NCBI GenBank assembly: GCA_964592785.1
Contig: CAZQHU010000004.1
Span: forward strand, 72-64,071
Source: an uncultured Gammaproteobacteria bacterium
Lineage (GTDB): Bacteria > Patescibacteriota > Patescibacteriia > Magasanikbacterales > UBA922
Direction of reading: 5' to 3'
DNA: 64,000 nucleotides
Below the pieces are notes generated by a model. That model was not told the DNA's origin, searched no databases, and saw only the letters and a list, made by a program, of their open reading frames with translations. Position numbers and translations under genes: made by a program. Below, in pieces: positions 7,425-51,804 of this stretch (its first letter is position 1; each line of letters starts with the position of its first letter).

Positions 7425-8810
7425 GTGGCTCAGTTTATGACACATGCACAAGCCCAAAAATTCATCCTTTCCTGGACCAAACTAGGAAGAAAAGAATACC
7501 TAAAAGACCCCAAAAAATGCGGTGTTTATCTTCAGCGTCTGCAATATTTTCTTGATTTAATTGGCAATCCGGAAAAACAAATCCCTCATTATATCCATGT
7601 CACTGGCACCAGTGGCAAAGGTTCAGTGTGTTTGATGCTAGATTCAATCTTACGTGCGGACAAACGAAAAGTAGGAACCATGACTTCTCCAGAAATTGGA
7701 CCCACTCAAACTCGTTGGCAAATAAACGGCCAAAAAATGACTGATAAAGAACTAGCAGAGATTATTACTAAATTAAAACCAAAGCTGGATCTATATTTAA
7801 AAACTTCACCCTACGATCCTATCTCACATTTTGAACTCATGACTGCCATCGGACTTTATTGGTTCGCGCAAAAAAAAGTAAAGTGGTGTATTTTGGAAGT
7901 AGGACTCGGTGGACGGTATGACTCAACTAATATAATTCCCCATAAAGATATTGCTGTCATTACTAATATCGGACTGGATCATACGGAAATACTAGGAAAA
8001 ACCAAAGCCAAGATTGCTTATGAAAAAGCAGGAATTATTAAGCCGGGATGTAAAGTATTCACCAATGAACAAAATAAAAAACTATTAAAAATATTTGAAA
8101 AAGAAATTACAAAAAACAAAACAAATACTAAACAAATACTCAAATTATCATGCCAAAAAAACTTACAAACTTACAAACTTACAAACTTACAAACTATTTT
8201 TAAATATCAAAACCATACTTACAATTTAAATACACTTGGGGAACATCAAGTTGGCAATGCTATTCTCGCAATTGAAATAACTAAATCACTCAAAATCCCC
8301 TACTCAACTATTAAACGTGGTTTAGAAAAAGTAAAACTACCACTGCGCATGGAGATAATTTCCAAAAATCCGCTGATAATTCTTGATGGCGCCCATAATC
8401 CTGATAAAATGAAAACGACAGTAGAAACAGTGCGTAAGTTAATAAGTATGCAAGTGAGTAAGTATAAAGAAAAATCACACTTACACACCTATACACTTAT
8501 ACACTTACTCACTGGATTTTCTGCTGACAAAGACCTAAAAACAATGTGTCAACAACTAAAAACCCTAAACCCAAAAACAATCGCCATCACCAAATTCACC
8601 TCCCCTTTCAAAAAATCTGCCAAACCAAAAGATATTGAAAAATTGGCTAAAAAATATTTCAAAAATACCAAAATCAAAATTTTTAGCAACCCTCAAACCG
8701 CTTATACCACTACAAAAAATAAACTCAAAAAAAATGATCTATTATTGGTCACTGGTTCACTATATTTGAGTGGTGAAATTCGCGCTAAATTGACAAAAGC
8801 AAAAAAATGA
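7425..8810 (+). CDS. folC: Folylpolyglutamate synthase / dihydrofolate synthase (Mur-ligase family), with two in-frame repeat insertions
   Basis: Motifs HVTGTSGKGS, EVGLGGRYDSTN, ITNIGLDHTEILG and DGAHNP. Start is GTG 7425 or ATG 7437. Confidence 0.75.
   Translation: MAQFMTHAQAQKFILSWTKLGRKEYLKDPKKCGVYLQRLQYFLDLIGNPEKQIPHYIHVTGTSGKGSVCLMLDSILRADKRKVGTMTSPEIGPTQTRWQINGQKMTDKELAEIITKLKPKLDLYLKTSPYDPISHFELMTAIGLYWFAQKKVKWCILEVGLGGRYDSTNIIPHKDIAVITNIGLDHTEILGKTKAKIAYEKAGIIKPGCKVFTNEQNKKLLKIFEKEITKNKTNTKQILKLSCQKNLQTYKLTNLQTIFKYQNHTYNLNTLGEHQVGNAILAIEITKSLKIPYSTIKRGLEKVKLPLRMEIISKNPLIILDGAHNPDKMKTTVETVRKLISMQVSKYKEKSHLHTYTLIHLLTGFSADKDLKTMCQQLKTLNPKTIAITKFTSPFKKSAKPKDIEKLAKKYFKNTKIKIFSNPQTAYTTTKNKLKKNDLLLVTGSLYLSGEIRAKLTKAKK
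8161..8194 (+). repeat. Tandem octamer (ACTTACAA)x4, in-frame within folC
   Basis: Direct reading. It encodes LQTYKLTNLQT. Confidence 0.7.
8430..8514. repeat. Palindromic GTAAGT-type element inserted in-frame in folC
   Basis: Left arm GTGCGTAAGTTAATAAGTATGCAAGTGAGTAAGTATAAAG. Right arm CACTTACACACCTATACACTTATACACTTACTCAC, which is the inverted complement of GTGAGTAAGT(G/A)TATAAG. Confidence 0.5.
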
Positions 8811-16912: not shown

Positions 16913-17617
16913 TCAAAATTTTTCCACTTTTATATCTGTAAAAACTTTACTCTGTTTCAAAATTATTTCCCGATTCTTGACCAATTCCAGTAAAGCCAAA
17001 AAAGTAATAATCACTTCTGTACGGTTAGCTGTATTATTTAAAATTTCTGAAAAACTAAAGCTCTTGGTTTTTTTTAATAAACTGGAAATATTTTTTATTT
17101 TCTCTTCCAAAAGCACGGTTTTGTCAATACTGGTTTGAGGTAAGGGTTTGGGAGGTTGTAAACGATGCAATAATTTTCTTAAACTTTCTTCCAAAGCAGT
17201 AAAAGACAAATCTTTGGGAGGAACAAAAGTTTCTGGCCGACGCGGTGGTTCTATTCTAAAAATTGATTTTTTCTGGCTCAACCAACTATGATCCAATTTT
17301 TTGGCTGTCTCTACAAACATTTTATAAAGACGTAGCTGTTCTTCCAAACTCGGACTTTCTTCTTCCTCAGGAGCAAACTGGGGTAAAAGATTTTTTGATT
17401 TCAAAAGTAACAAACGAGCCGCTACTACCAAAAAATCTGCCAATTCCTCAGGATTTTTATTTTCAATTTTTTCCAAATAATTCAAAAACTGTTCAGTGAC
17501 AGCCGAAAGTGAAACCTCACTAATATTTAATTTCTCTTCATCAATTAGAGACAAAAGTAAATCTAGTGGTCCAGAAAATTGTTCCAGTTGAAAATCTTTC
17601 ATGTTTTTAAATGTCAT
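16913..17617 (-). CDS. scpA: Segregation and condensation protein A
   Basis: ScpA N-terminal signature FSGPLDLLLSLIDEEKLNISEVSL. Confidence 0.85.
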   Translation of the reverse strand: MTFKNMKDFQLEQFSGPLDLLLSLIDEEKLNISEVSLSAVTEQFLNYLEKIENKNPEELADFLVVAARLLLLKSKNLLPQFAPEEEESPSLEEQLRLYKMFVETAKKLDHSWLSQKKSIFRIEPPRRPETFVPPKDLSFTALEESLRKLLHRLQPPKPLPQTSIDKTVLLEEKIKNISSLLKKTKSFSFSEILNNTANRTEVIITFLALLELVKNREIILKQSKVFTDIKVEKF

Positions 17618-17700
17618 TCCTGCGAAAGCAGGAATCTAATACTACCAGCGAGACCCCTGCTTCCGCAGGGGTGACACACTACTTTAGTGGCAACTTCGCT
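17613..17700. repeat. GTCATTCC-family short palindromic element; the scpA ATG lies inside its terminal GGAATGACA
   Basis: TGTCATTCCTGCGAAAGCAGGAATC hairpin with GAAA loop, plus a second hairpin CCCCTGC-TTCC-GCAGGGG. Near-identical to the copy at 30641. Confidence 0.5.
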
Positions 17701-18026
17701 TGTCTCTCCTCAAGCAAATTTTGGCTAATCTTAGCTCCTTTTTTTGTTAAACTAATATGTGTTATGAACCATTTGTGGGGTGTTCTCTTGCCATATCCGG
17801 TAAGTAATTCTCGGTCAATCAGATGTTCCAAACTCTTGGTAATAATACTTTCCTGATATTTATCCTGAGCGACTCGCTCCGAGTCAAGCCGAGAGGAGCC
17901 GAAGGATTTATCTTTGGCTGGGTCAAAAACTTTATGATAAAAATTTCGAAATATTTTTCGATCAAGTTTGTTGCCTTTTTGCAAACACTCCAACAAGATA
18001 TACTTTTGGAGCGTGCTTAATTTCAT
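17679..18026 (-). CDS. Hypothetical protein (C-terminus runs into the repeat)
   Basis: ORF only. The true 3' end is uncertain. Confidence 0.35.
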   Translation of the reverse strand: MKLSTLQKYILLECLQKGNKLDRKIFRNFYHKVFDPAKDKSFGSSRLDSERVAQDKYQESIITKSLEHLIDRELLTGYGKRTPHKWFITHISLTKKGAKISQNLLEERQAKLPLK

Positions 18027-19463: not shown

Positions 19464-19524
19464 AAATAAACCTAAAATAAGTTAGAAATATAGTAATATT
19501 TTAGCAAAAATAATTAATTTTGGC

Positions 19525-19572
19525 AATAAAAATGGAAGACCCCCGTCCTGACGTGAAGTCGGAACGAGGGTC
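19525..19572 (-). terminator. Intrinsic terminator for the GC-rich ORF
   Basis: Hairpin AGACCCCCGTCC..GGAACGAGGGTCT followed by TCCATTTTTATT when read on the minus strand. Confidence 0.45.
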
Positions 19573-19634
19573 TATTTTACACCTCCCTTTTGAAAACCAA
19601 ATGATCAGATATCGAACAAATTTTCACTTTCCTA

Positions 19635-20462
19635 TCAACCCAGGGTCACCACCCCCAGAGCCAGACAACCAAGATCGTCTTCGCTCGAGTCATCAAAACG
19701 CCAAATACAATCAAGGCCACCCTGGGCATCACGTCTCAAACTGAAATGCTGAGCATCATCAAACTTGGTACTGGTTCGCACGTACTTACCTTGGAGTGGC
19801 TGTGGTTCGCCAGTAATGAACTCATGGCTCTGGATGACGAGAGTGCCCAGAGACACGCTGCCATGGATAAGCTTGAAGTTCAAACCCAATTTCTGACCAA
19901 CAGTAGCAAGCAGATCTTTCTGCTCCTTCAAGGTTTTCCCGATACTGCCAGGCAACACGAACGGTGCACCAATGATGAGATGTCTGCCTTTTCCACGAAG
20001 CTCATTGGGGAGACTGCCGTGGGCAAACAACCTCATAAGATTCAAGTTATTGTGGCAGGGACCACAATACTTGGATGCCACCTGCACGTTGAACGGTAGA
20101 TGGAATTCCGTATCCACGAAACGTACGATGGGGGTGACCGGTTGTACACCATTGTCCGCGACAAAATCCCGCATGTGGCGCAAGTTCCCAGAAAGCCAGT
20201 TTGGCACACCTGGTAATTCCCCAATATCCAAATCTCTAAGTGGCTTGACAAACATGGACAAAGTCTCACCACGGAATCTACGCTCCACATTCATGGATGC
20301 GACTTGTAAGGCAGTGGGCGAAACGGTGACGAGATTTCTGGCTTGCAGATCACGAGCCACCCCCCAGTTACCCATCAACCAGTCGAACACTCGTTCGGCT
20401 TCCTCTGGTTTCTGCCTATCAATCCTTGCCAATTCATGGAAACTTCTTGGAAACAGTGACAT
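19635..20462 (-). CDS. Hypothetical protein encoded in a GC-rich, compositionally foreign segment
   Basis: Markedly GC-rich. Strong RBS GGAGGAAACCAAG-ATG, unlike native genes. No family recognised. Confidence 0.45.
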   Translation of the reverse strand: MSLFPRSFHELARIDRQKPEEAERVFDWLMGNWGVARDLQARNLVTVSPTALQVASMNVERRFRGETLSMFVKPLRDLDIGELPGVPNWLSGNLRHMRDFVADNGVQPVTPIVRFVDTEFHLPFNVQVASKYCGPCHNNLNLMRLFAHGSLPNELRGKGRHLIIGAPFVLPGSIGKTLKEQKDLLATVGQKLGLNFKLIHGSVSLGTLVIQSHEFITGEPQPLQGKYVRTSTKFDDAQHFSLRRDAQGGLDCIWRFDDSSEDDLGCLALGVVTLG

Positions 20463-20615
20463 CTTGGTTTCCTCCTGCCAACAAGCAATTCATCTTGGCA
20501 AAAAACGCCAGCCCGGCATTTCCCCCCAAAGATGGTAAACTTGTTAGCAAATTGCCGGAGACCTCCCCCGACTTCTTGTCTTAAAATTAACACTTTTTTG
20601 AATTTTTGTCAATAC

Positions 20616-20645
20616 AAAAAAATCGCTTAATTAAGCGATTTTTTT
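20616..20645. terminator. Perfect 30-nt palindrome; bidirectional terminator after rsmB
   Basis: AAAAAAATCGCTTAATTAAGCGATTTTTTT. A candidate promoter TTGACA-17-TAATTT on the minus strand at about 20560-20592 would drive the GC-rich ORF. Confidence 0.5.
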
Positions 20646-29362: not shown

Positions 29363-30634
29363 TCACATCCGATCATATTCATGCACCTCAATCTGTGCGT
29401 CAATTTGTTTAGCGGTTTCAATAGCTACTGACACCACGATTAACAGCGAAGTACCACCAATTACCAAAGATTGAGTACCAGTGAAAGCACGTAAAATAAG
29501 TGGCAGAATAGCAATAAGACCTAAAAACAAAGCCCCCACAAAAATCAACCGACTCATAGTATGCCCCAAATATTCTTCTGTCTGTTTGCCTGGACGAATG
29601 CCAGGAATAAAACCACCTTGTCTTTGCAAATTTTCGGCAATTTTTTGTGGATGAAAAATAACTGCCGTGTAAAAATAAGTAAAACCAAATACCAAAACAA
29701 AATACAGAACAGCGTAAAATAATTGATTATTAAATAAATCTACCACCCAACGTGATAAAGACCCAATAAATCCAGCTTTATTAACCAAAAACTGGGCAAC
29801 CATAGAAGGAAAAACGATAATGGAAATCGCAAAAATAATCGGAATCACTCCAGCCATATTTACACGTAAGGGTAAATGGGTACTTGAACCACCATACATT
29901 TTATTACCTCTCACTTGTTTGGCATAAGAAACCGGAATATTTCTTTGACCTTCACTAATAACTACCACACCAACTACAGTAACAACGGCGATAAAAATAA
30001 ACAATAAATATGTATATAAATCAGCCGGATTATAATTTATTACAGCTTGTTGAATAGTACTAGGAAGACTAGCAACTATACCAGAAAAAATCAAAAGAGA
30101 AATACCATTGCCAATCTTTTGTTCAGTAATAAGTTCACCAATCCACATCAAAAAAACTGTGCCAGCAGTAATAGTGATCATTATCAAGGTCAACTTGACA
30201 GCTGTAAGATCGGGAATAATTCCATATTGTGACTGGCCCAAAAGTTTTATCATACCAAAAGCTTGCAATAAAGCCAAAGGTACAGTGGCCAAACGGGTAT
30301 ACATGCTAATTTTTTGTTGCCCACTTTCACCCTCTTTGGACAATTCTTCCAAACTGGGAACAATCATGGTCAAAAGCTGAAAAATAATAGAAGCAGTAAT
30401 ATAAGGTGCCACACCTAACATCACTATGGAAAAATTTTCCATAGTACCACCAGAAAAAACATTGAGCAAACCCAAAATTTGATTACTGGAAAGAAATTGT
30501 TTCAAAGCATCGGCATCAATACCCGGAACCGGAATATGTGCCACCAAACGAAAAACAACCAACATCCCCAAAACAAAAAATACTTTATTTCTCAAATCTT
30601 TAATTTTCCAAACTCGAAGAATTTTTTCCCACAT
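29363..30634 (-). CDS. secY: Preprotein translocase SecY
   Basis: 10-TM SecY fold and its position after rplO. Confidence 0.9.
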   Translation of the reverse strand: MWEKILRVWKIKDLRNKVFFVLGMLVVFRLVAHIPVPGIDADALKQFLSSNQILGLLNVFSGGTMENFSIVMLGVAPYITASIIFQLLTMIVPSLEELSKEGESGQQKISMYTRLATVPLALLQAFGMIKLLGQSQYGIIPDLTAVKLTLIMITITAGTVFLMWIGELITEQKIGNGISLLIFSGIVASLPSTIQQAVINYNPADLYTYLLFIFIAVVTVVGVVVISEGQRNIPVSYAKQVRGNKMYGGSSTHLPLRVNMAGVIPIIFAISIIVFPSMVAQFLVNKAGFIGSLSRWVVDLFNNQLFYAVLYFVLVFGFTYFYTAVIFHPQKIAENLQRQGGFIPGIRPGKQTEEYLGHTMSRLIFVGALFLGLIAILPLILRAFTGTQSLVIGGTSLLIVVSVAIETAKQIDAQIEVHEYDRM

Positions 30635-43808: not shown

Positions 43809-45341
43809 AAAGGAGGTGATCCATCCCCAGCTTCCGCTAGGGATGCCTTGTTACGACTTCACCCTGATCACTGACCCTGCCTTAGTCCCCATAAGGAGCC
43901 TTTGGGCGTTGCCAGCTTTCGTGGTGTGACGGGCGGTGAGTACAAGACCCGAGAACGTATTCACCGCGCCGTATCTGATGCGCGGTTACTAGCGAATCCA
44001 ACTTCATGAGGACGAATTTCAGCCCTCAATCCGAACTGAGGCTAGCTTTTTGGGATTAGCTCCATCTCGCGATTTAGCAACCCTTTGTACTAGCCATTGT
44101 ATCATGCGTGTAGCCCTGGACGTAAGAGCCATGCTGATTTGACGTCGTCCCCGCCTTCCTCCCGTTTAAACGGGCAGTCTCGTGTGTACATTTAACACAC
44201 AATAGGGGTTGCGCTCGTTACCAGACTTAACTGTACACCTCACGGCACGAGCTGACGGCAACCATGCAGCACCTATCTAACACCTTCGAAAGCGGGCAAT
44301 GTTTCCATCGCCTTGCAGTTAGTAGTTGAGCCCAGGTAAGGTTCGCCGCGTACCGTCGAATTAAACCGCATGATCCTCCGCTTGTGCGGGTCCCCGTCTA
44401 TTCCTTTGAGTTTTAACCTTGCGGCCGTACTCCCCAGGCGGTGTACTTAACGCGTTTGCTTTTTAAAACGGCACTGAGAGGGTCGATACTCCCAATACCT
44501 AGTACACATCGTTTAGGGCGTGGACTACTAGGGTATCTAATCCTATTCGCTACCCACGCTTTGGTCCATGAGTGTCAGGCATGTTATAGCAAGCTGCCTT
44601 CGCCTTTGGTGTTCCTATCGATATCAGCGCTTATTACGACTACACCGATAGTTCCGCTTGCCTCTCCCAGCCTCCAGTCTGATAGTATCAACAGCAGTCC
44701 CGGAGTTAAGCCCCGGGATTTAACCATTGACTTTTCAGACAACCTGCGGACGCTTTACGCCCAATGAATCCGGATAACGTTTGAGGTCTCTGTATTACCG
44801 CTGCTGCTGGCACAGAGTTAGCAACCTCTTATTCCTAGGGTACCGTCACAAATTCGTCCCCTATAAAAGCAGTTTACACCCCGAAGGGCTTCATCCTGCA
44901 CGCGGCGTCGCTCCATCAGACTTTCGTCCATTGTGGAATATTCTTGACTGCAGCCTCCCGTAGGAGTCTGGGCAGTATCTCAGTCCCAGTGAGGCAGGTC
45001 ACGCTCTCACGCCTGCTACCCGTCATAGCCTTGGTGGTCTATTACACCGCCAACTAGCTGATAGGACATAGGCCTTTCTCCAAGTGATAAATCTTTAAAT
45101 GCGAATGACTTTTGTCCCCGCATTGCCATCGGGTATTAATCCACCTTTCGGTGGGCTATCCCCGTCTTGGAGGTAAGTTACCAATGTGTTACTCACCCGT
45201 TTGCCGCTCGTAACCCGTCCAACACTCTACCAACATTTATAAAAAATATTTTTAGAGTGTTGGTCGGGCACGTCGCTCGACTTGCATGCCTTAAACACGC
45301 CGCCAACGTTCATCCTGAGCCAGGATCAAACTCTCAGTAAA
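43809..45341 (-). rRNA. rrs: 16S ribosomal RNA, about 1.53 kb, not linked to a 23S
   Basis: 5' end GAGTTTGATCCTGGCTCAG (rc at 45315-45334). 3' end GGATCACCTCCTTT (rc at 43809-43822). Internal universal segments such as GTGCCAGCAGCCGCGGTAATAC (rc at about 44790) are present. Confidence 0.9.
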
Positions 45342-45823
45342 GAGTTTGAATCCGATCTAACTAAATTAATAGTTAGAGGTTTATGATTCTAATTTGAATA
45401 GACATTGACAATGATCTTTGTCACGTTCTTGTTGTGAATCCTTACTTTTTTTGGATTTGGTTGATCTTGTAATTTTAAATTGTCAAAGTACATCTTTCTT
45501 TTTTAAGAAAGAAAAAAGAGGAACCAAAATTTTGAGTTACTCTTTTTTCTTTCCAGTATCCGGGTTTCACTTCGTTACGCCCGGTAAACCCGTTCTTTTT
45601 CAAAAAGATGGTTTACCCGGCGTAGTCCGCTTTGAGCGGACGAAGTCGGGACTTAGAAAAAGCGTTTGATTGTGAAGGGGTTGTTTAGTTTGCTGGGCAA
45701 TTGTACATTTATTTAAAAGAGTTGTCAAGAGCAAGATATGCACAGGAATGGGGATAAAAAAACAAAATACATAGAAAACGGAATAAAAAAAAACAAAATA
45801 TTTTATTTATCCACACCTTACCC

Positions 45824-45891: not shown

Positions 45892-46236
45892 ATGAGCTTG
45901 TCAAGTGAACTTCAAGATGCAAGCAGTGACGCCCAAAGAAAACAGGAAGAAAGAAAGAGACAGGAGCAGAAGAATCACGAAATTCTTGAGCATACAATCA
46001 TGCTCAGAAGAATTGAAGAAATCCAGAGACACATGAAGGTGCGTGCCGACCAAGGATACAGTCATATTGTCGTTGAACTAGAGTACGATTTCCGAGGTTG
46101 TACCGAACGCTTCGGATCCGAAGCGGTAAGGGAACTGGTGAACTGGGCACATGCCCAAGGATTCCAAACCAAGGAAGATTGGTGTAACGGAACCCAATTC
46201 ACTCCAGGGTGTAGAATTCTTTACATCATGTGGTAA
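45892..46236 (+). CDS. Hypothetical protein in a moderately GC-rich foreign-looking segment
   Basis: Strong RBS GGAGGAAACC-ATG. The ORF-track start at 45847 lies upstream of the RBS; 45892 is preferred. Confidence 0.4.
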   Translation: MSLSSELQDASSDAQRKQEERKRQEQKNHEILEHTIMLRRIEEIQRHMKVRADQGYSHIVVELEYDFRGCTERFGSEAVRELVNWAHAQGFQTKEDWCNGTQFTPGCRILYIMW

Positions 46237-47437: not shown

Positions 47438-49513
47438 TCACTTCTTCCCTTCAGCAATCTGTGCCTCAATATTTTTTGGCACATCTGCATAATGATCAAA
47501 TTCCATAGCATAAGTAGCCCGGCCCTGTGACATGGAGCGTAAATCTGTAGCATAACCAAACATTTCTGAAAGAGGAACCATGGCGCGCACCACTTTGGCA
47601 GTACCACGCTGAGTCATCTCCAAAATCTGTCCGCGTTTGGAATTAAGATTGCCGATCACATCACCCATGTATTCTTCTGGAGTGGTCACTTCTACTTTCA
47701 TTACTGGTTCCAAAACTACAGGACTAGCTTTTTTGGCAGCCTCTTGAAAGGCCATAATACCAGCCATTTTGAAAGCGATTTCTGAAGAGTCAACTTCATG
47801 GTAAGAACCATCAAAAACAGTCACTTGCAAATCCACCACTGGGAAACCAGCTACCACACCTTTATCAATTGCTTCTTTCACGCCTTTTTGAATGGCTGGA
47901 ATATATTCGCGAGGAATAACACCACCTTTGACTTCATCAATAAATTCAAATCCTTGTCCACGTTCACGAGGTTCAAGTTTGAGATAGCAATGACCATATT
48001 GACCGCGTCCACCAGACTGTTTGATGTATTTACCTTCAGCTTCGGCACTCTGGCGAATAGTCTCTTTATAAGCTACTTGTGGCTTACCAACTTTGGCCTC
48101 CACTTTAAATTCACGCTTCATGCGATCCACAATGATTTCCAAATGCAATTCACCCATACCAGAAATAATAGTCTGTAATGTTTCTTGATCAGTATGAACT
48201 CGAAAAGTCGGATCTTCTTCAGCCAACTTTTGTAAAGCCAAGCTCATCTTCTCAGCATCAGCTTTGGTGTTTGGTTCAATGGCAATATCAATCACTGGTT
48301 CAGGGAAAACAATTTTTTCCAAAAGTACCGGACGATTTTCTGCGCAAAGAGTATCTCCAGTAGTGGTAGATTTAAGTCCTACTGCCGCAGCAATCTCTCC
48401 AGCATAAACTTCATTTACATCTTCTCGATGATTGGCATGAAGTCTAACAATACGACTAATACGTTCTTTTTCTCCATTGGAAGTATTGATTACATAGCTA
48501 CCAGCAGTCAAAACACCGGAATAAACTCGAAAAAAAGCCAACTTTCCCACAAAAGGATCAGTGGCTATTTTGAAAGCCAAAGCAGTAAAAGGAGCACTGT
48601 CATCAGCTTTAACAATTATTTCTTTGGTTTCATCATTAGGATCATGAGCTTTGATATCTGGCACATCCAGAGGTGAAGGTAAGAAGTAAGTGACAGCATC
48701 CAACACCAACTGCACCCCCATATTTTGCAAAGCTGAACCACACATTACAGGGTACATCTCATCTTGCAAAACCAAAGCGCGAATGCCAGACTTTATTTCA
48801 ACTTCAGTAAATTCTCCACCATTTAAATATTTATTCATGAGTTCATCATTAGCTTCAGCCACTTTTTCCAACAATTGAGCCCGATAAGTTTGAGCTCTTT
48901 CCAATTCTTCAGCTGGAATTTCCATTTCCACGATATTTTCACCGCTCTTACCTTCAAATTTATAAGCTTTCATTTTGATAAGATCAATGATCCCGGAAAA
49001 AGAAGATTCAGCCCCGATTGATAATTGAATAGCAAAAGCTTTGGGGGATAATCTTTCTTTAATGGAATTTAAACTCATATAAAAATCCGCACCCATCTTG
49101 TCCATTTTATTGACAAAACAAATTCTTGGCACGCGATATTTATCAGCTTGACGCCAAACTGTTTCAGATTGTGGCTCCACACCTTGGGAACCATCAAAAA
49201 CAGCTACTGCGCCATCGAGTACGCGCAAAGATCTTTCTACTTCCACAGTAAAGTCCACGTGGCCGGGAGTGTCAATAAGATTGATACGATGATCTTTCCA
49301 AAAACAAGTGGTGGCAGCTGAAGTAATAGTGATACCACGTTCTTTTTCTTGTTCCATCCAATCCATTTCAGCGGCTCCTTCATGTACTTCACCAATCTTA
49401 TGTTTCTTACCAGTATAAAAAAGAATACGTTCTGAAACAGTAGTCTTACCGGCATCAATATGAGCGGCAATACCAATGTTCCTGGTTTTGTCTAATGAAT
49501 ATTCACGAGGCAT
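47438..49513 (-). CDS. fusA: Elongation factor G
   Basis: [17 protein letters not shown]. Start at [15 protein letters not shown] (49513) matches orthologues. The upstream ATG at 49525 lies inside the repeat terminus. Confidence 0.9.
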
Positions 49514-49520
49514 AAGTTTA

Positions 49521-49646
49521 TTCATTCCGAGCGTAGCGAGGAATCTTTCTCACCTCGTACATATCGGAGTGTTTAGTTATTGATTTAAAAAAGTTTGTAA
49601 TAGGAAAGATTCCTCACCCTCGCTTGAACTCGGGTTCGGAATGAAC
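49521..49646. repeat. GTCATTCC-family MITE/REP-like element filling the rpsG-fusA spacer
   Basis: TIRs TTCATTCCGAGCGTAGCGAGGAATCTTTC and GAAAGATTCCTCACCCTCGC...CGGAATGAAC, with a central GATTTAAAAAAGTTT. Its terminus CGGAATGAATAAACTT lies immediately 5' of the fusA ATG. Confidence 0.6.
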
Positions 49647-50120
49647 CTACCGACGAGCGAAGTGAGCAAAAGCTTTGTTGGCTTCAGCCATGCGCACCAC
49701 ATCTTCTTTTTTCTTCATCGCGCCACCGGTTCCTGCCAAAACATCCAACATTTCACTAGAAAGTTTTTCAATCATGTTTTGACCTTTACGTTCACGCGCA
49801 GCACCAATAATCCAACGAAAGGCCAAAGCATTTTGACGCTCTGCTGGTACTGGCATTGGCACTTGGTAGTTCGCGCCACCGACACGACGAGAGCGGACTT
49901 CAACTGAAGGCCTGACTGTGTCCATCACTTGTTCAAATAAAACTACAGCATCAGCTTTTTTAACTTCTTGAAGTTTTTCCAAAGCACCATAAACAATTTC
50001 TTGAGCTCGGGTCTTTTTTCCGCTTTCCATGATCATGTTAATAAATTTGGCCAACAAAACACTATTATATTTTGGTTCTGGAGCCAAAACTCTTTTTGGT
50101 ACACTTTTTCCTCTAGGCAT
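49647..50120 (-). CDS. rpsG: 30S ribosomal protein S7
   Basis: MPRGKSVPKRVLAPEPKYNS signature. Confidence 0.9.
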   Translation of the reverse strand: MPRGKSVPKRVLAPEPKYNSVLLAKFINMIMESGKKTRAQEIVYGALEKLQEVKKADAVVLFEQVMDTVRPSVEVRSRRVGGANYQVPMPVPAERQNALAFRWIIGAARERKGQNMIEKLSSEMLDVLAGTGGAMKKKEDVVRMAEANKAFAHFARR

Positions 50121-50128
50121 ATAGTTCG

Positions 50129-50262
50129 TTCATTCCGAGCGTAGCGAGGAATCCTTCTTGCCTCGAACGTAGTCGGAATGTTTATTTTATGATTTAAAAA
50201 AGTTTTAATTTAAGAAAGATTCCTCGTTTAGTCCGTGCGAACGGACTCACTCGGAATGAACC
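50129..50262. repeat. GTCATTCC-family MITE/REP-like element filling the rpsL-rpsG spacer
   Basis: Near-identical to 49521-49646: TTCATTCCGAGCGTAGCGAGGAATCC...GAAAGATTCCTCG...CTCGGAATGAAC. Its terminus lies 9 nt upstream of the rpsG ATG. Confidence 0.6.
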
Positions 50263-50267
50263 TAAAA

Positions 50268-50693
50268 TTATTTACCAGCTTTCGGTCTCTTGGCTCCGTA
50301 GATAGAACGACCTTTACGACGGGCTTCTACACCCTGGGTGTCATAAACACCGCGAACAATATGATAACGAACACCTGGCAAGTCTTTTACACGGCCACCG
50401 CGAATAAGCACAATAGAGTGCTCTTGAAGATTGTGTCCTTCACCAGGAATATAAGCGATTACTTCCAAACCATTGCTAAGTCTAACCTTGGCGACTTTAC
50501 GCAAAGCTGAGTTTGGTTTCTTTGGAGTAGTGGTATAAACCTTGGTACAAACTCCACGTTTAAATGGGCAACCGCGACGCAAAGTGGTCTTGGCGCGATG
50601 CAAACTATCGTAGGTAAATTGCAAAGCCGGTGACTTGGATTTCACTGTCTTTGGATGTCTTCCCTTACGAATGATTTGATTCATTGTAGGCAT
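50268..50693 (-). CDS. rpsL: 30S ribosomal protein S12
   Basis: [12 protein letters not shown]...[11 protein letters not shown] signature. Confidence 0.95.
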
Positions 50694-50699
50694 AAGATT

Positions 50700-50817
50700 T
50701 ATTCATTCCGAACGAAGTGAGGAATCTTTTCCAACACGTACGTTCTTAAATAAAATTAAATAAAATAAAATTATTTTTTCTTAATAAAGATCTCTCACCC
50801 TTTGGGCTCGAGATGAA
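50700..50817. repeat. Degenerate third copy of the GTCATTCC-family element upstream of rpsL
   Basis: TTCATTCCGAACGAAGTGAGGAATC...GATCTCTCACCC...CTCGAGATGAAC. Confidence 0.45.
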
Positions 50818-51140: not shown

Positions 51141-51653
51141 ATGATCCGCATCATCTTGGCCATGACCATGATCCTGTCCCTGGCCGCCTGCAACGACGAC
51201 ATCAAGGCCGAGCTGGCCCAGACCAAGGCCGATCTGGCTCGGGTCCAGTCGGATCTCAACCAGGTGGTCGAGTACCACCGCCTGACCCAGGCGATCCAGG
51301 AGGAGACCATGCTCCTCCAGGATCTGCGCGAACAGACCCAGACTCTGAACAAGGACCTGGACTCCCTGGCCAATCGCGCCATCCTGGCACGGTCAGCACT
51401 GCCTGCGCAGGCCTACCTCTGTAAGGGCAACCGTTCTTGCGAGGAAGAGACGGCAGCCAAGGCCAAGATCGAGGCTGTGAAGATGAATGAGGAAGTCGAC
51501 ACCCTCAATGCCCGATCCAAGCAACTGGGCGAGGAGACCAGCCTCCACATCACTCGACACAAGCAGGCGGAGACGGCCATGAAGGTCGCACGGGCGGCGC
51601 TCCCACCCGATCTGCAAGAACGCCTCCTCGGAGTAAGGGAGTCTTCCCACTAG
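51141..51653 (+). CDS. Coiled-coil lipoprotein encoded in a strongly GC-rich foreign island
   Basis: Signal peptide with lipobox LSLAAC. Strong RBS GAGGAGGAAACACA-ATG. GC content is far above the background. Overlapping antisense ORFs are artefacts of high GC. Confidence 0.6.
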   Translation: MIRIILAMTMILSLAACNDDIKAELAQTKADLARVQSDLNQVVEYHRLTQAIQEETMLLQDLREQTQTLNKDLDSLANRAILARSALPAQAYLCKGNRSCEEETAAKAKIEAVKMNEEVDTLNARSKQLGEETSLHITRHKQAETAMKVARAALPPDLQERLLGVRESSH

Positions 51654-51772
51654 CTCTTTCGCCGTGACGACATACAGTGTCTCTCTGTACCCCGACCCAG
51701 TCGGGAACGCCAGAGGACCCGTGTCACTCACGGCTCACCCTCTATATTTTTCACGAAGAATATTGAGGATAA

Positions 51773-51804
51773 TAAAAAATTCACCTCATCGGTGAATTTT
51801 TTAT
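51773..51804. terminator. Bidirectional intrinsic terminator
   Basis: AAAAAATTCACC-TCATCG-GTGAATTTTTTATTTC. Confidence 0.55.

What the first reader, a model, noticed from the sequence alone, without database searches (positions are those of the whole stretch)
19525..20645. GC-rich foreign ORF with a GGAGGAAAC RBS, native-looking promoter and terminator, and a perfect 30-nt palindrome
An approximately 1.1-kb block is visibly GC-rich against the AT-rich background. It encodes a 275-aa protein of unknown family on the minus strand. The ORF is preceded by the strong RBS GGAGGAAACCAAG-ATG, whereas native genes here have weak or no SD. It nevertheless sits between an AT-rich candidate promoter and an AT-context intrinsic terminator, so it looks domesticated. 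The upstream boundary is a perfect palindrome AAAAAAATCGCTTAATTAAGCGATTTTTTT. Two other GC-rich ORFs in the window (45892.., 51141..) carry the same GGAGGAAAC-N-ATG signature. This points to a common high-GC donor, conceivably a host or partner organism if this is an episymbiont.
Basis: partly seen in the sequence, partly recalled or inferred. Interest (0 to 1): 0.55.

Follow-up and report, generated by a model that had tools for sequence, protein, structure and literature searches.

The report
Orphan hypermutation-target lectin gene, not foreign
The GC-rich gene belongs to a family of binding proteins that a reverse-transcriptase system (a diversity-generating retroelement, DGR) rewrites in relatives. 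The copy here has no such machinery nearby, and its odd composition is a family trait rather than a sign of import from a high-GC donor.

Summary
ORF 19635-20462 (-), 275 aa, has GC3 0.53 against about 0.30 for native genes. It has a GGAGG Shine-Dalgarno (SD) site in a genome whose genes otherwise lack one, and its own promoter, 118-nt leader and hairpin terminator. The 30-nt palindrome is the terminator of the upstream rsmF-like gene. Four independent assemblies share both junctions, so it is not a chimera.

A profile search found 159 relatives with no Pfam domain; the only named ones are Candidatus Magasanikbacteria, a candidate phyla radiation (CPR) lineage. The model (pLDDT 89) best matches a C-type lectin fold. 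In five relatives the gene's 3' end is copied downstream as a template repeat, and 71 of 77 mismatches lie at template adenines. Three of those also carry a reverse transcriptase, and one carries bAvd. This is a DGR variable-protein family.

The target gene is GC-richer than its host in most loci (13 of 16 with usable flank) and SD-led in most. Its own RT and Avd look host-like. The window copy has no template repeat or RT within 64 kb, and its variable region is identical across five assemblies. It is a static orphan, or at best a remote target. A structured 5' leader is conserved in its subfamily.

The parts
20616..20645 (-). The perfect 30-nt palindrome. It is the intrinsic (bidirectional-type) terminator of the upstream rsmF-like gene and is not part of the cassette.
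   Evidence: It lies 23 nt after the rsmF stop. It folds as an A7-stem-U7 hairpin with z = -3.8. L005 has a different hairpin at the same relative position, and homology begins after it.
20584..20612 (-). Extended -10 promoter: TTGACA, 17 nt, TGnTAATTT.
   Evidence: Read from the sequence. It was not called by the simple scan. The layout is conserved in L005, L010 and L022.
20463..20580 (-). Structured 5' leader of about 118 nt. P1 hairpin at 20554-20572; long P2 hairpin at about 20470-20551, ending next to the SD.
   Evidence: MFE -52.3 kcal/mol, z = -4.7. The RNAalifold consensus has 36 pairs, 13 of them with compensatory changes, across 5 sequences from four different contexts. Model R1 finds it only in the close subfamily. 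No Rfam family matches.
20467..20475 (-). Shine-Dalgarno GGAGGAAAC, 4 nt before the ATG.
   Evidence: The 16S rRNA carries the CCUCC anti-SD. Native genes lack an SD.
19635..20462 (-). CDS of 275 aa: a divergent member of a CPR family of DGR variable proteins with a C-type-lectin-like C-terminal half.
   Evidence: AF2 model pLDDT 89. Best Foldseek hit is the Bd2740 C-type lectin domain.
19638..19790 (-). Region that aligns to the variable repeat (VR) of relatives. It includes the A-free 3' stretch CTTGGTTGTCTGGCTCTG (19656-19673) and GGGGTGGTG (19647-19655), an element resembling the IMH (the GC-rich homing signal at the 3' end of a VR).
   Evidence: The equivalent stretch has a TR partner with adenine-specific mismatches in five relatives. 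Nucleotide-level conservation across 12 loci. Family entropy is higher at TR-adenine codons. No TR partner exists in the window.
19525..19634 (-). 3' UTR with an SD-like AAAGGGAGGTG, a bulged hairpin at 19538-19572 (which shares GTTCCGACTT with the post-VR hairpin of L014), and a U-run at 19525-19537. It acts as the terminator and may be a relic of the DGR target hairpin.
19498..19526 (-). Promoter of the downstream aspS gene (TTGCCA, 17 nt, TG-TAAAAT). It marks the native flank.

Best explanation
The block is one transcription unit: an extended -10 promoter, a structured 118-nt leader, a strong SD, a 275-aa ORF and a hairpin terminator. It encodes a cytoplasmic protein (no signal peptide evident on inspection of the N-terminus) from a CPR, Magasanikbacteria-associated family. 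The C-terminal half of that family adopts a C-type-lectin-like fold.

In this family the last roughly 120 nt of the gene form the variable repeat of a diversity-generating retroelement. A template repeat (TR) just downstream is transcribed. An RT, with bAvd, reverse-transcribes it with errors at adenines. The cDNA then overwrites the VR and reshapes the ligand-binding surface.

The window copy keeps the VR-like layout, the A-free GGGGTGG 3' end and a downstream hairpin. It has no TR and no RT within 64 kb, and its VR does not vary among five assemblies. It is most likely a fixed ('orphan') binding protein whose surface was set by past DGR activity.

High GC, adenine-poor third codon positions and the strong SD are recurrent traits of the target genes of this family. 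They are not evidence of foreign origin.

Shown: family membership; DGR linkage in relatives; absence of TR and RT in the window; lack of VR variation. Inferred: ligand binding; present inactivity; the role of the leader, which probably stabilises the mRNA or controls translation.
For: Homology. P0001 is 98% identical and P0002 36%. The profile search gave 159 hits at E <= 1e-3 and 68 at E <= 1e-10.

Fold. The AF2 model has pLDDT 89 and pTM 0.79. The top PDB match is 8oks, the Bd2740 C-terminal domain (E 3.5e-3, probability 1.00, TM-score normalised by target length 0.58). That domain is a C-type lectin variant whose trimer matches only the DGR protein Mtd (PMC10769870).

DGR linkage. VR/TR pairs are present in L014, L024, L025, L028 and L032, at 82-93% identity over 112-122 nt, and 71 of 77 mismatches lie at TR adenines. 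An RT (RVT_1, E about 4e-22) follows the TR in L028 and L032; L025 has a truncated RT plus bAvd.

Family-wide imprint. Column entropy is 3.23 bits at TR-adenine codons against 1.88 bits elsewhere (p = 1e-5). In the relatives P0013 and P0157, 15 of 16 differences fall inside the VR.

Window copy. There is no repeat of the gene's 3' end and no YxDD ORF in the window. The 10 nucleotide differences from L001-L004 all lie outside the last 150 nt.

Composition. The target gene is GC-richer than the rest of its locus in 13 of the 16 loci with usable flank; 9 of 13 scored loci have a GC3 z above 2, and most carry an SD-like motif. RT and Avd are host-like and lack an SD.

Literature. CPR DGR targets typically lack recognisable domains, and novel C-Lec variants are expected in CPR (PMC8144416).
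Against: Only 64 kb of a genome of roughly 1 Mb (my estimate) was available, so a remote TR and RT cannot be excluded.

In L014 the TR has no RT within 8 kb downstream. The RT can evidently act from a distance in these genomes.

No member of the window's own subfamily (L005, L009, L010, L022) showed a TR. This clade may never have been a DGR target in its present form.

The organism was not identified directly.
Confidence: 0.72

Rival explanations
1. It is an active remote DGR target. A TR and an RT elsewhere in the same genome still rewrite this VR in trans.
For: The IMH-like A-free GGGGTGG end and the downstream hairpin are retained. L014 has a TR but no RT within 8 kb, so the RT can act from a distance. 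Remote targets are known, and contig-based surveys miss them (PMC8144416).
Against: There is no TR in 64 kb, whereas in every TR-bearing relative the TR lies 190-330 nt after the gene. The VR is identical in five assemblies while the rest of the gene differs at 10 sites. The subfamily members L010 and L022, and 12 contigs carrying P0005, also show no TR and no VR variation.
Confidence: 0.2
2. It is a recent horizontal import from a high-GC donor, such as the bacterial host of an episymbiont.
For: GC3 is 0.53 against 0.30 (z = 2.6), and the gene has an SD unlike native genes. Two other GC-rich ORFs carry the same 9-mer.
Against: Named homologues are CPR only. The promoter and leader are shared with CPR relatives. 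The GC excess recurs in most hosts, which span GC 0.33 to 0.59. The adjacent RT and Avd of the same element are host-like. SNP density matches the flanks (1.2% against 0.8-1.0% upstream).
Confidence: 0.06
3. It is a selfish mobile cassette, like a phage moron or a free-standing homing-endonuclease gene, that hops between intergenic sites.
For: It is solitary and flanked by different housekeeping genes in every genome. It carries its own promoter and terminator. In L006 a direct repeat of about 130 bp flanks a neighbouring SD-led ORF.
Against: No nuclease, integrase or transposase signature was found in Pfam or PHROGs. There are no terminal repeats around this gene, and no hits came from IMG/VR. 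The invariant residues are mostly Gly, Pro, Leu, Phe and Cys, not a catalytic set. Differing synteny is expected at 36-40% protein identity.
Confidence: 0.05
4. It is an assembly chimera joining a GC-rich fragment to an AT-rich contig.
For: The composition changes abruptly at both ends.
Against: Four independent assemblies from four SRA runs have identical junctions. The promoter and terminator are AT-context and continuous with the flanks.
Confidence: 0.01

Closest known systems
DGR variable proteins with a C-type lectin fold (Mtd of Bordetella phage BPP-1, TvpA of Treponema denticola, AvpA of Thermus aquaticus), and specifically the cellular 'clade 2' DGRs of Patescibacteria/CPR (Roux et al. 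2021, PMC8144416)
   Same: The VR sits at the very 3' end of the gene. In relatives the TR has AAC/GAC/AAT codons and adenine-only mismatches. TR, then (Avd), then RT follow the target. The 3' end of the VR is A-free and GC-rich, and a hairpin follows the gene. The best structural match is a C-Lec domain. There is no transmembrane segment or other recognisable domain, as reported for CPR targets.
   Different: This copy has no TR, RT or Avd within 64 kb and shows no VR variation. There is no sequence-level match to the Pfam C-Lec-type families or to any PDB chain. The subfamily carries a conserved structured 5' leader and a CGPC motif. The whole ORF, not only the VR, is GC-rich and A3-poor relative to the host and to its own RT.
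Bdellovibrio bacteriovorus Bd2740 C-terminal domain (PDB 8OKS), the tip of a MAT adhesive fibre
   Same: It is the best fold match (Foldseek E 3.5e-3, probability 1.00, 123 aligned columns). It is a calcium-free C-type lectin variant.
   Different: Sequence identity is 8%, and the TM-score normalised by query length is only 0.27. Bd2740 is the tip of a surface-exposed trimeric fibre, whereas this protein has no signal peptide or fibre region.
Horizontally acquired genomic islets or morons
   Same: Deviant GC and codon use, its own promoter and terminator, insertion between housekeeping genes.
   Different: The deviation is shared by most family members with usable flank, in hosts spanning a wide GC range, and is not shared by the linked RT and Avd. 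No donor lineage was found. SNP density is like that of the flanks.

Membership tests
DGR variable (target) protein family | Homology to proteins whose 3' end is a VR paired with a TR showing adenine-specific mismatches | tested here: met
   The family profile gives E 5e-25 to 3e-77 for the nearest clades. Five homologous loci have VR/TR pairs, and 71 of 77 mismatches lie at TR adenines.
DGR variable (target) protein family | C-type-lectin-type fold carrying the VR at the C-terminus | tested here: inconclusive
Active DGR target at this locus | A cognate TR in the same genome, identical to the VR except at adenines | tested here: not met
   There is no repeat of the last 260 nt anywhere in the 64-kb window or in L001. 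The genome-collection scan for the VR/TR pattern gave 0 hits. The rest of the genome was not available.
Active DGR target at this locus | A DGR reverse transcriptase (with or without Avd) nearby | tested here: not met
   No ORF of 150 aa or more with a Y-x-D-D motif occurs in any frame of the window. Relatives do have one: RVT_1 in L028, L032 and L025, and bAvd in L025.
Active DGR target at this locus | Population-level hypervariation confined to the VR | tested here: not met
   Window against L001-L004: 10 nucleotide differences, at positions 13-675 of 828, and none in the VR. A positive control exists in the family: in P0013 and P0157, 15 of 16 differences fall in the VR.
Active DGR target at this locus | IMH-like GC-rich, A-free 3' end of the VR, plus a downstream hairpin | tested here: met
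   CTTGGTTGTCTGGCTCTGGGGGTGGTG aligns with the same element in 11 relatives. The hairpin at 19538-19572 shares GTTCCGACTT with the post-VR hairpin of L014.
Recent horizontal transfer from a high-GC donor | Closest homologues in a high-GC, non-CPR lineage | tested here: not met
   Of 20 clusters looked up, the only named sources are Candidatus Magasanikbacteria. All contexts read are small-genome, SD-poor and CPR-like. There were no hits in the GTDB representatives or in IMG/VR with the patterns used.
Recent horizontal transfer from a high-GC donor | Compositional deviation shared by co-transferred neighbours and decaying with residence time | tested here: not met
   In L032, L025 and L028 the adjacent RT and Avd have host-like or lower GC3 (0.23, 0.41/0.40 and 0.54), while the target has 0.72-0.80.
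Known cis-regulatory RNA (riboswitch or leader) in Rfam | A match to an Rfam covariance model at its gathering score | tested here: not met
   There is no match at gathering scores. At the E-value threshold the best hits reach only 20-26 bits, against gathering scores of 41-440.
Integron gene cassette | A promoterless ORF followed by attC, in an array or near intI | tested here: not met
   The unit has its own conserved promoter. It is solitary, and no GTTRRRY core was seen when I inspected the 3' hairpin.

The most novel reading that the evidence does not exclude
In these SD-poor CPR genomes, the DGR target gene alone is kept GC-rich, depleted of adenine at third codon positions on the coding strand, and SD-led. 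Its RT and Avd are not. The adenine depletion would be a footprint of adenine-directed retro-mutagenesis, or of selection against it, that reaches beyond the canonical VR. The SD plus the conserved structured leader would form a dedicated translation-control channel for such genes. Orphan copies such as this one would be binding proteins 'frozen' after the retroelement was lost.
Probability: 0.15. Interest if true: 0.7.

Novelty: new member of a known kind. Interest (0 to 1): 0.45.

Why it matters
The result turns an apparent foreign gene into an identifiable class: an unannotated family of DGR variable proteins from CPR bacteria, which Pfam and PDB sequence searches miss.

It shows that GC excess plus a strong SD in an AT-rich, SD-poor CPR genome is not a safe indicator of horizontal transfer.

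It provides a natural contrast within one family. Some members are actively diversifying and others are fixed orphans. That contrast could be used to ask what CPR DGR targets bind and what happens when hypermutation stops.

Two observations are, to my knowledge, not discussed in the DGR papers read here, and both are testable. The first is the target-specific composition bias, GC-rich and A3-poor compared with the element's own RT. The second is the conserved 5' leader.

Tried and rejected
Sequence searches of the protein alone found nothing. This covers Pfam, PHROGs and PDB by sequence. Pfam and PDB searches with the 63-sequence profile also found nothing.

The first AF2 run, with 3 sequences, was useless (pLDDT 37).

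The search for related loci with the close alignment A1 found nothing in genomes, viral contigs or metagenomes.

The search for homologous proteins with the 63-sequence alignment hit its candidate cap and returned only 5 proteins.

A scan of GTDB genomes for the window's VR/TR pattern gave 0 hits. The source genome and any remote TR could therefore not be recovered.

The organism's name could not be obtained from cluster look-ups.

I considered a thioredoxin-like reading of the CGPC motif and a papain-like reading of 'Cys at a helix N-terminus'. I dropped both: only the second Cys is conserved in the family, it is lost in L007 and L008, and no fold match supports either.

I considered an integron cassette, a type III toxin-antitoxin system, a retron and a homing endonuclease. 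I rejected all four for lack of their defining parts.

The leader covariance model did not extend beyond the close subfamily.

Full report
**1. Observation**

The feature exists as described. Windows 19501-20500 have GC 0.47-0.50 against a background of about 0.33-0.40. The ORF 19635..20462 (-) encodes 275 aa. Its GC is 0.504 and its GC3 0.533. The 51 native ORFs of the window average GC3 0.30 +/- 0.09, so z = 2.6.

GGAGGAAAC sits 4 nt before the ATG. The same 9-mer occurs only twice more in 64 kb, each time just before the ATG of another GC-richer ORF (45892-46236 with GC3 0.46; 51141-51653 with GC3 0.81). The expected count is 0.39, and 1 of 100 shuffles reached three. Native genes show essentially no SD, although the 16S rRNA ends in ...GAUCACCUCCUUUCU.

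Four independent assemblies (L001-L004) carry the gene between the same asnS/rsmF and aspS neighbours. They are 99.1-99.5% identical over up to 20.8 kb, so a chimeric contig is excluded.

**2. Anatomy**

All features lie on the minus strand.
- The 30-nt palindrome (20616-20645) lies 23 nt after the stop of the rsmF-like gene. It folds as an A7-stem-U7 hairpin. It is that gene's terminator, not a cassette boundary. Homology with the relative L005 starts immediately after it.
- The promoter follows: TTGACA, 17 nt, TGnTAATTT (20612-20584). I read this from the sequence, and it is missed by the simple scan. It is conserved in L005, L010 and L022.
- A leader of about 118 nt comes next, then the SD and the CDS.
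- A 3' UTR of about 100 nt ends in a 15-bp bulged hairpin (19538-19572) and a U-run.
- The aspS promoter follows directly.

**3. The protein family**

The protein alone hits nothing in Pfam, PHROGs or PDB sequences. The word-indexed search found only a 98% variant and one 36% relative. An exhaustive profile search found 159 representative clusters at E <= 1e-3 and 68 at E <= 1e-10, mostly 240-280 aa.

The family has conserved motifs: GFTLKxHAPKxGPC, DEPT, VFWIPR, LPxHHLxxFGS, LILAH, TGERVPL, RTDT, GLxC and LGxFALGVExLG. The window protein belongs to a divergent clade of it. None of 63 members hits Pfam. Of 20 clusters looked up, the only names are Candidatus Magasanikbacteria (OGH84263.1 and HOX60693.1).

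In every genome the gene is solitary and has different neighbours:
- window: rsmF | X | aspS
- L005: rplU | X
- L006: secY | X | map, in a 1.14-Mb genome
- L010-L013: macB | X | dnaG
- L014: a metallo-beta-lactamase gene | X | ndk
- L015: ftsH | X
- L016: X | leuS
- L020: cysS | X | pilM
- L021: X | infB

**4. What the family is**

With the 63-sequence alignment, AlphaFold gave a confident model (pLDDT 89, pTM 0.79). The best PDB match by Foldseek is the Bd2740 C-terminal domain (E 3.5e-3, probability 1.00). According to its paper, that domain is a C-type lectin variant whose only trimer-matching homologue is Mtd, the DGR variable protein of Bordetella phage (PMC10769870).

That lead was tested directly. 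In L014 the last 122 nt of the gene are repeated 449 nt downstream at 82% identity. Of the 22 mismatches, 21 are an adenine in the downstream copy, whose codons read AAC, GAC or AAT.

A DNA-pattern scan of metagenomes, built on the conserved 3' end, returned 10 further family loci. Four of them have the same kind of repeat. Over the five pairs, 71 of 77 mismatches lie at template adenines.

Downstream of the template repeat:
- L028 and L032 encode a reverse transcriptase (RVT_1, E about 4e-22, with NLTSQ...YADD motifs).
- L025 encodes bAvd (PF22296) and a truncated RT.

Across all 154 aligned family sequences, columns that correspond to template codons with adenine are far more variable than the rest (3.23 against 1.88 bits, p = 1e-5). 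Within one 90% cluster, P0013 and P0157 differ at 16 residues, 15 of them inside the variable region.

The family is therefore a DGR variable-protein family. This fits the published description of cellular 'clade 2' DGRs of Patescibacteria. Their targets lack recognisable domains and are expected to hide new C-Lec variants (PMC8144416).

**5. The copy in the window**

The window copy retains the A-free stretch CTTGGTTGTCTGGCTCTG followed by GGGGTGGTG. This aligns at the nucleotide level with the end of the variable repeat in 11 relatives. It also retains a downstream hairpin that shares GTTCCGACTT with the GC-rich post-VR hairpin of L014.

The 64-kb window holds no second copy of the gene's 3' end and no ORF with a Y-x-D-D motif. 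The 10 nucleotide differences from L001-L004 all lie at positions 13-675 of 828; none is in the variable region. Other members of the same clade (L010, L022, and P0005 on 12 contigs) likewise have no template repeat and no variation.

My reading is a fixed, orphan member. A remote template and RT elsewhere in the genome remain possible. In L014 the template has no RT within 8 kb downstream, so action from a distance occurs.

**6. Why it is GC-rich and SD-led**

In 13 of the 16 loci with usable flank, the family gene is GC-richer than the rest of its locus:
- window: 0.50 against 0.37
- L022: 0.55 against 0.35
- L032: 0.59 against 0.33
- L025: 0.59 against 0.42
- L015: 0.67 (GC3 0.92) against 0.44
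- L006: 0.58 against 0.49

In L021 the two are about equal (0.56 against 0.55), and in L007 and L008 the gene is slightly GC-poorer than its surroundings. An SD-like motif precedes the start in most loci, while neighbouring genes have none; none was found for L028, and the start in L029 is unclear.

Where RT and Avd lie next to the target, they are host-like or AT-richer and lack an SD. GC3 values are 0.23 for the L032 RT, 0.41 and 0.40 for the L025 RT and Avd, and 0.54 for the L028 RT, against 0.72-0.80 for the targets. Genes transferred together would not differ like this.

Third-position A/(A+T) on the coding strand is lower than in native genes in 10 of 11 loci where the strand was scored correctly. 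The trend persists outside the variable region. I cannot say whether this reflects selection or a mutational footprint of the retroelement, so it is recorded as unexplained.

**7. The leader**

The leader folds into a 7-bp 5' hairpin preceded by AAGAAG, and a long interrupted hairpin whose 3' arm abuts the SD (MFE -52.3 kcal/mol, z = -4.7).

Leaders of the window, L005, L010 and L022 are about 75% identical in nucleotides, although the proteins are 36-40% identical. They share a consensus structure of 36 pairs, 13 of which have compensatory changes.

A covariance model finds the leader only in this subfamily, plus a truncated copy in L009. No Rfam family matches. More distant members have shorter leaders. 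These still begin with AAGAAG plus a hairpin and carry a small CCC...GGG hairpin before the SD.

The SD is not sequestered in the predicted folds. I therefore favour mRNA stabilisation or binding of a factor over a simple on/off switch. This is inference.

**8. The other two ORFs**

ORF 51141-51653 encodes a 170-aa protein with a lipoprotein-like signal sequence (MIRIILAMTMILSLAAC) and has GC 0.61. It has no homologue except itself among 5.8 billion clusters, and only weak hits in PHROGs and Pfam. ORF 45892-46236 has no family hit.

Neither ORF is related to the DGR family, and neither has a repeat in the window. The shared GGAGGAAAC remains unexplained. It is not conserved in the family outside the window and L022, which has GGAGGAAAT.

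**9. Verdict**

The 'foreign gene from a high-GC donor' interpretation is not supported. The gene is a new, unannotated member of a known kind, a CPR DGR variable protein, and is present here as an apparently static orphan.

Interest is moderate. The class is known. The value lies in three things: the target-specific compositional and translational signature, the conserved leader, and the contrast between active and fixed members.

Noticed in passing
window 49508-49615, 50115-50225, 50688-50741: An intergenic element of about 110 nt is repeated at about 85% identity upstream of the fusA, rpsG and rpsL genes. Related short hairpin-like motifs ending ...CGGAATGA lie just before the ATG of several native genes, for example secY (29363..30634) and ORF 16913..17617. 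It could be a lineage-specific leader or translation signal in an SD-poor genome.
   Followed up: no
window 51141-51653 (+), with promoter around 51010 and terminator around 51765-51795: A 170-aa ORF with a lipoprotein-like signal (MIRIILAMTMILSLAAC) and coiled-coil character has GC 0.61 and GC3 0.81. It has no homologue except itself in 5.8 billion clusters. Its only family hits are weak: an Rz-like spanin in PHROGs and DUF2756 in Pfam.
   Followed up: partly
window 45892-46236 (+), next to the 16S rRNA gene 43809-45341 (-): A 114-aa ORF with GC3 0.46 and the same GGAGGAAAC SD has no Pfam hit. Its exact sequence is not in the protein collection. A 48-nt inverted repeat lies at 45507-45553.
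   Followed up: partly
window-wide; 16S 3' end at 43809-43830 (-): Native genes have almost no SD, although the 16S rRNA keeps the CCUCC anti-SD. The same holds in the related genomes L006, L010, L014 and L015. In those genomes only a few GC-richer ORFs carry strong SDs, for example L014:9664-10935 (423 aa) and L006:7361-7828 (155 aa).
   Followed up: partly
L006:7163-7296 and L006:7936-8075: A direct repeat of about 130 bp duplicates the region downstream of secY. It flanks an SD-led 155-aa ORF with a signal peptide, next to the family member P0152. The true start of P0152 is probably the GTG at 8097, after AAGGAGG.
   Followed up: no
L010:4907-6417 compared with L011 and L012: Two extra genes (281 aa with a weak Bro-N hit, and 216 aa) are inserted between the two macB/ftsX genes in L010. 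They are absent from the otherwise syntenic L011 and L012.
   Followed up: no
L014:3517-3638: A DGR template repeat is perfectly matched to its VR at non-adenine positions, yet there is no RT or Avd within 8 kb downstream or 3.5 kb upstream. The RT evidently lies elsewhere and acts in trans.
   Followed up: partly
3' UTRs of L005, L009, L010, L014, L015, L016, L020 and L028, immediately after the stop codon: Short CTNGG motifs (CTTGG, CTAGG, CTCGG) recur every 8-10 nt after the nearly invariant TAG stop. In the window and L009, an SD-like AAAGGAGGT precedes the terminator hairpin. Their function is unknown; they may be part of the DGR target-recognition region.
   Followed up: no
L007:1023-1441: A RelE-like toxin/antitoxin pair lies directly upstream of, and overlaps, a 312-aa family member that has lost the conserved GPC cysteine.
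   Followed up: no
window 17679-18026 (-): A 115-aa ORF between aspS and scpA has no Pfam hit. It is conserved in L001-L003.
   Followed up: no
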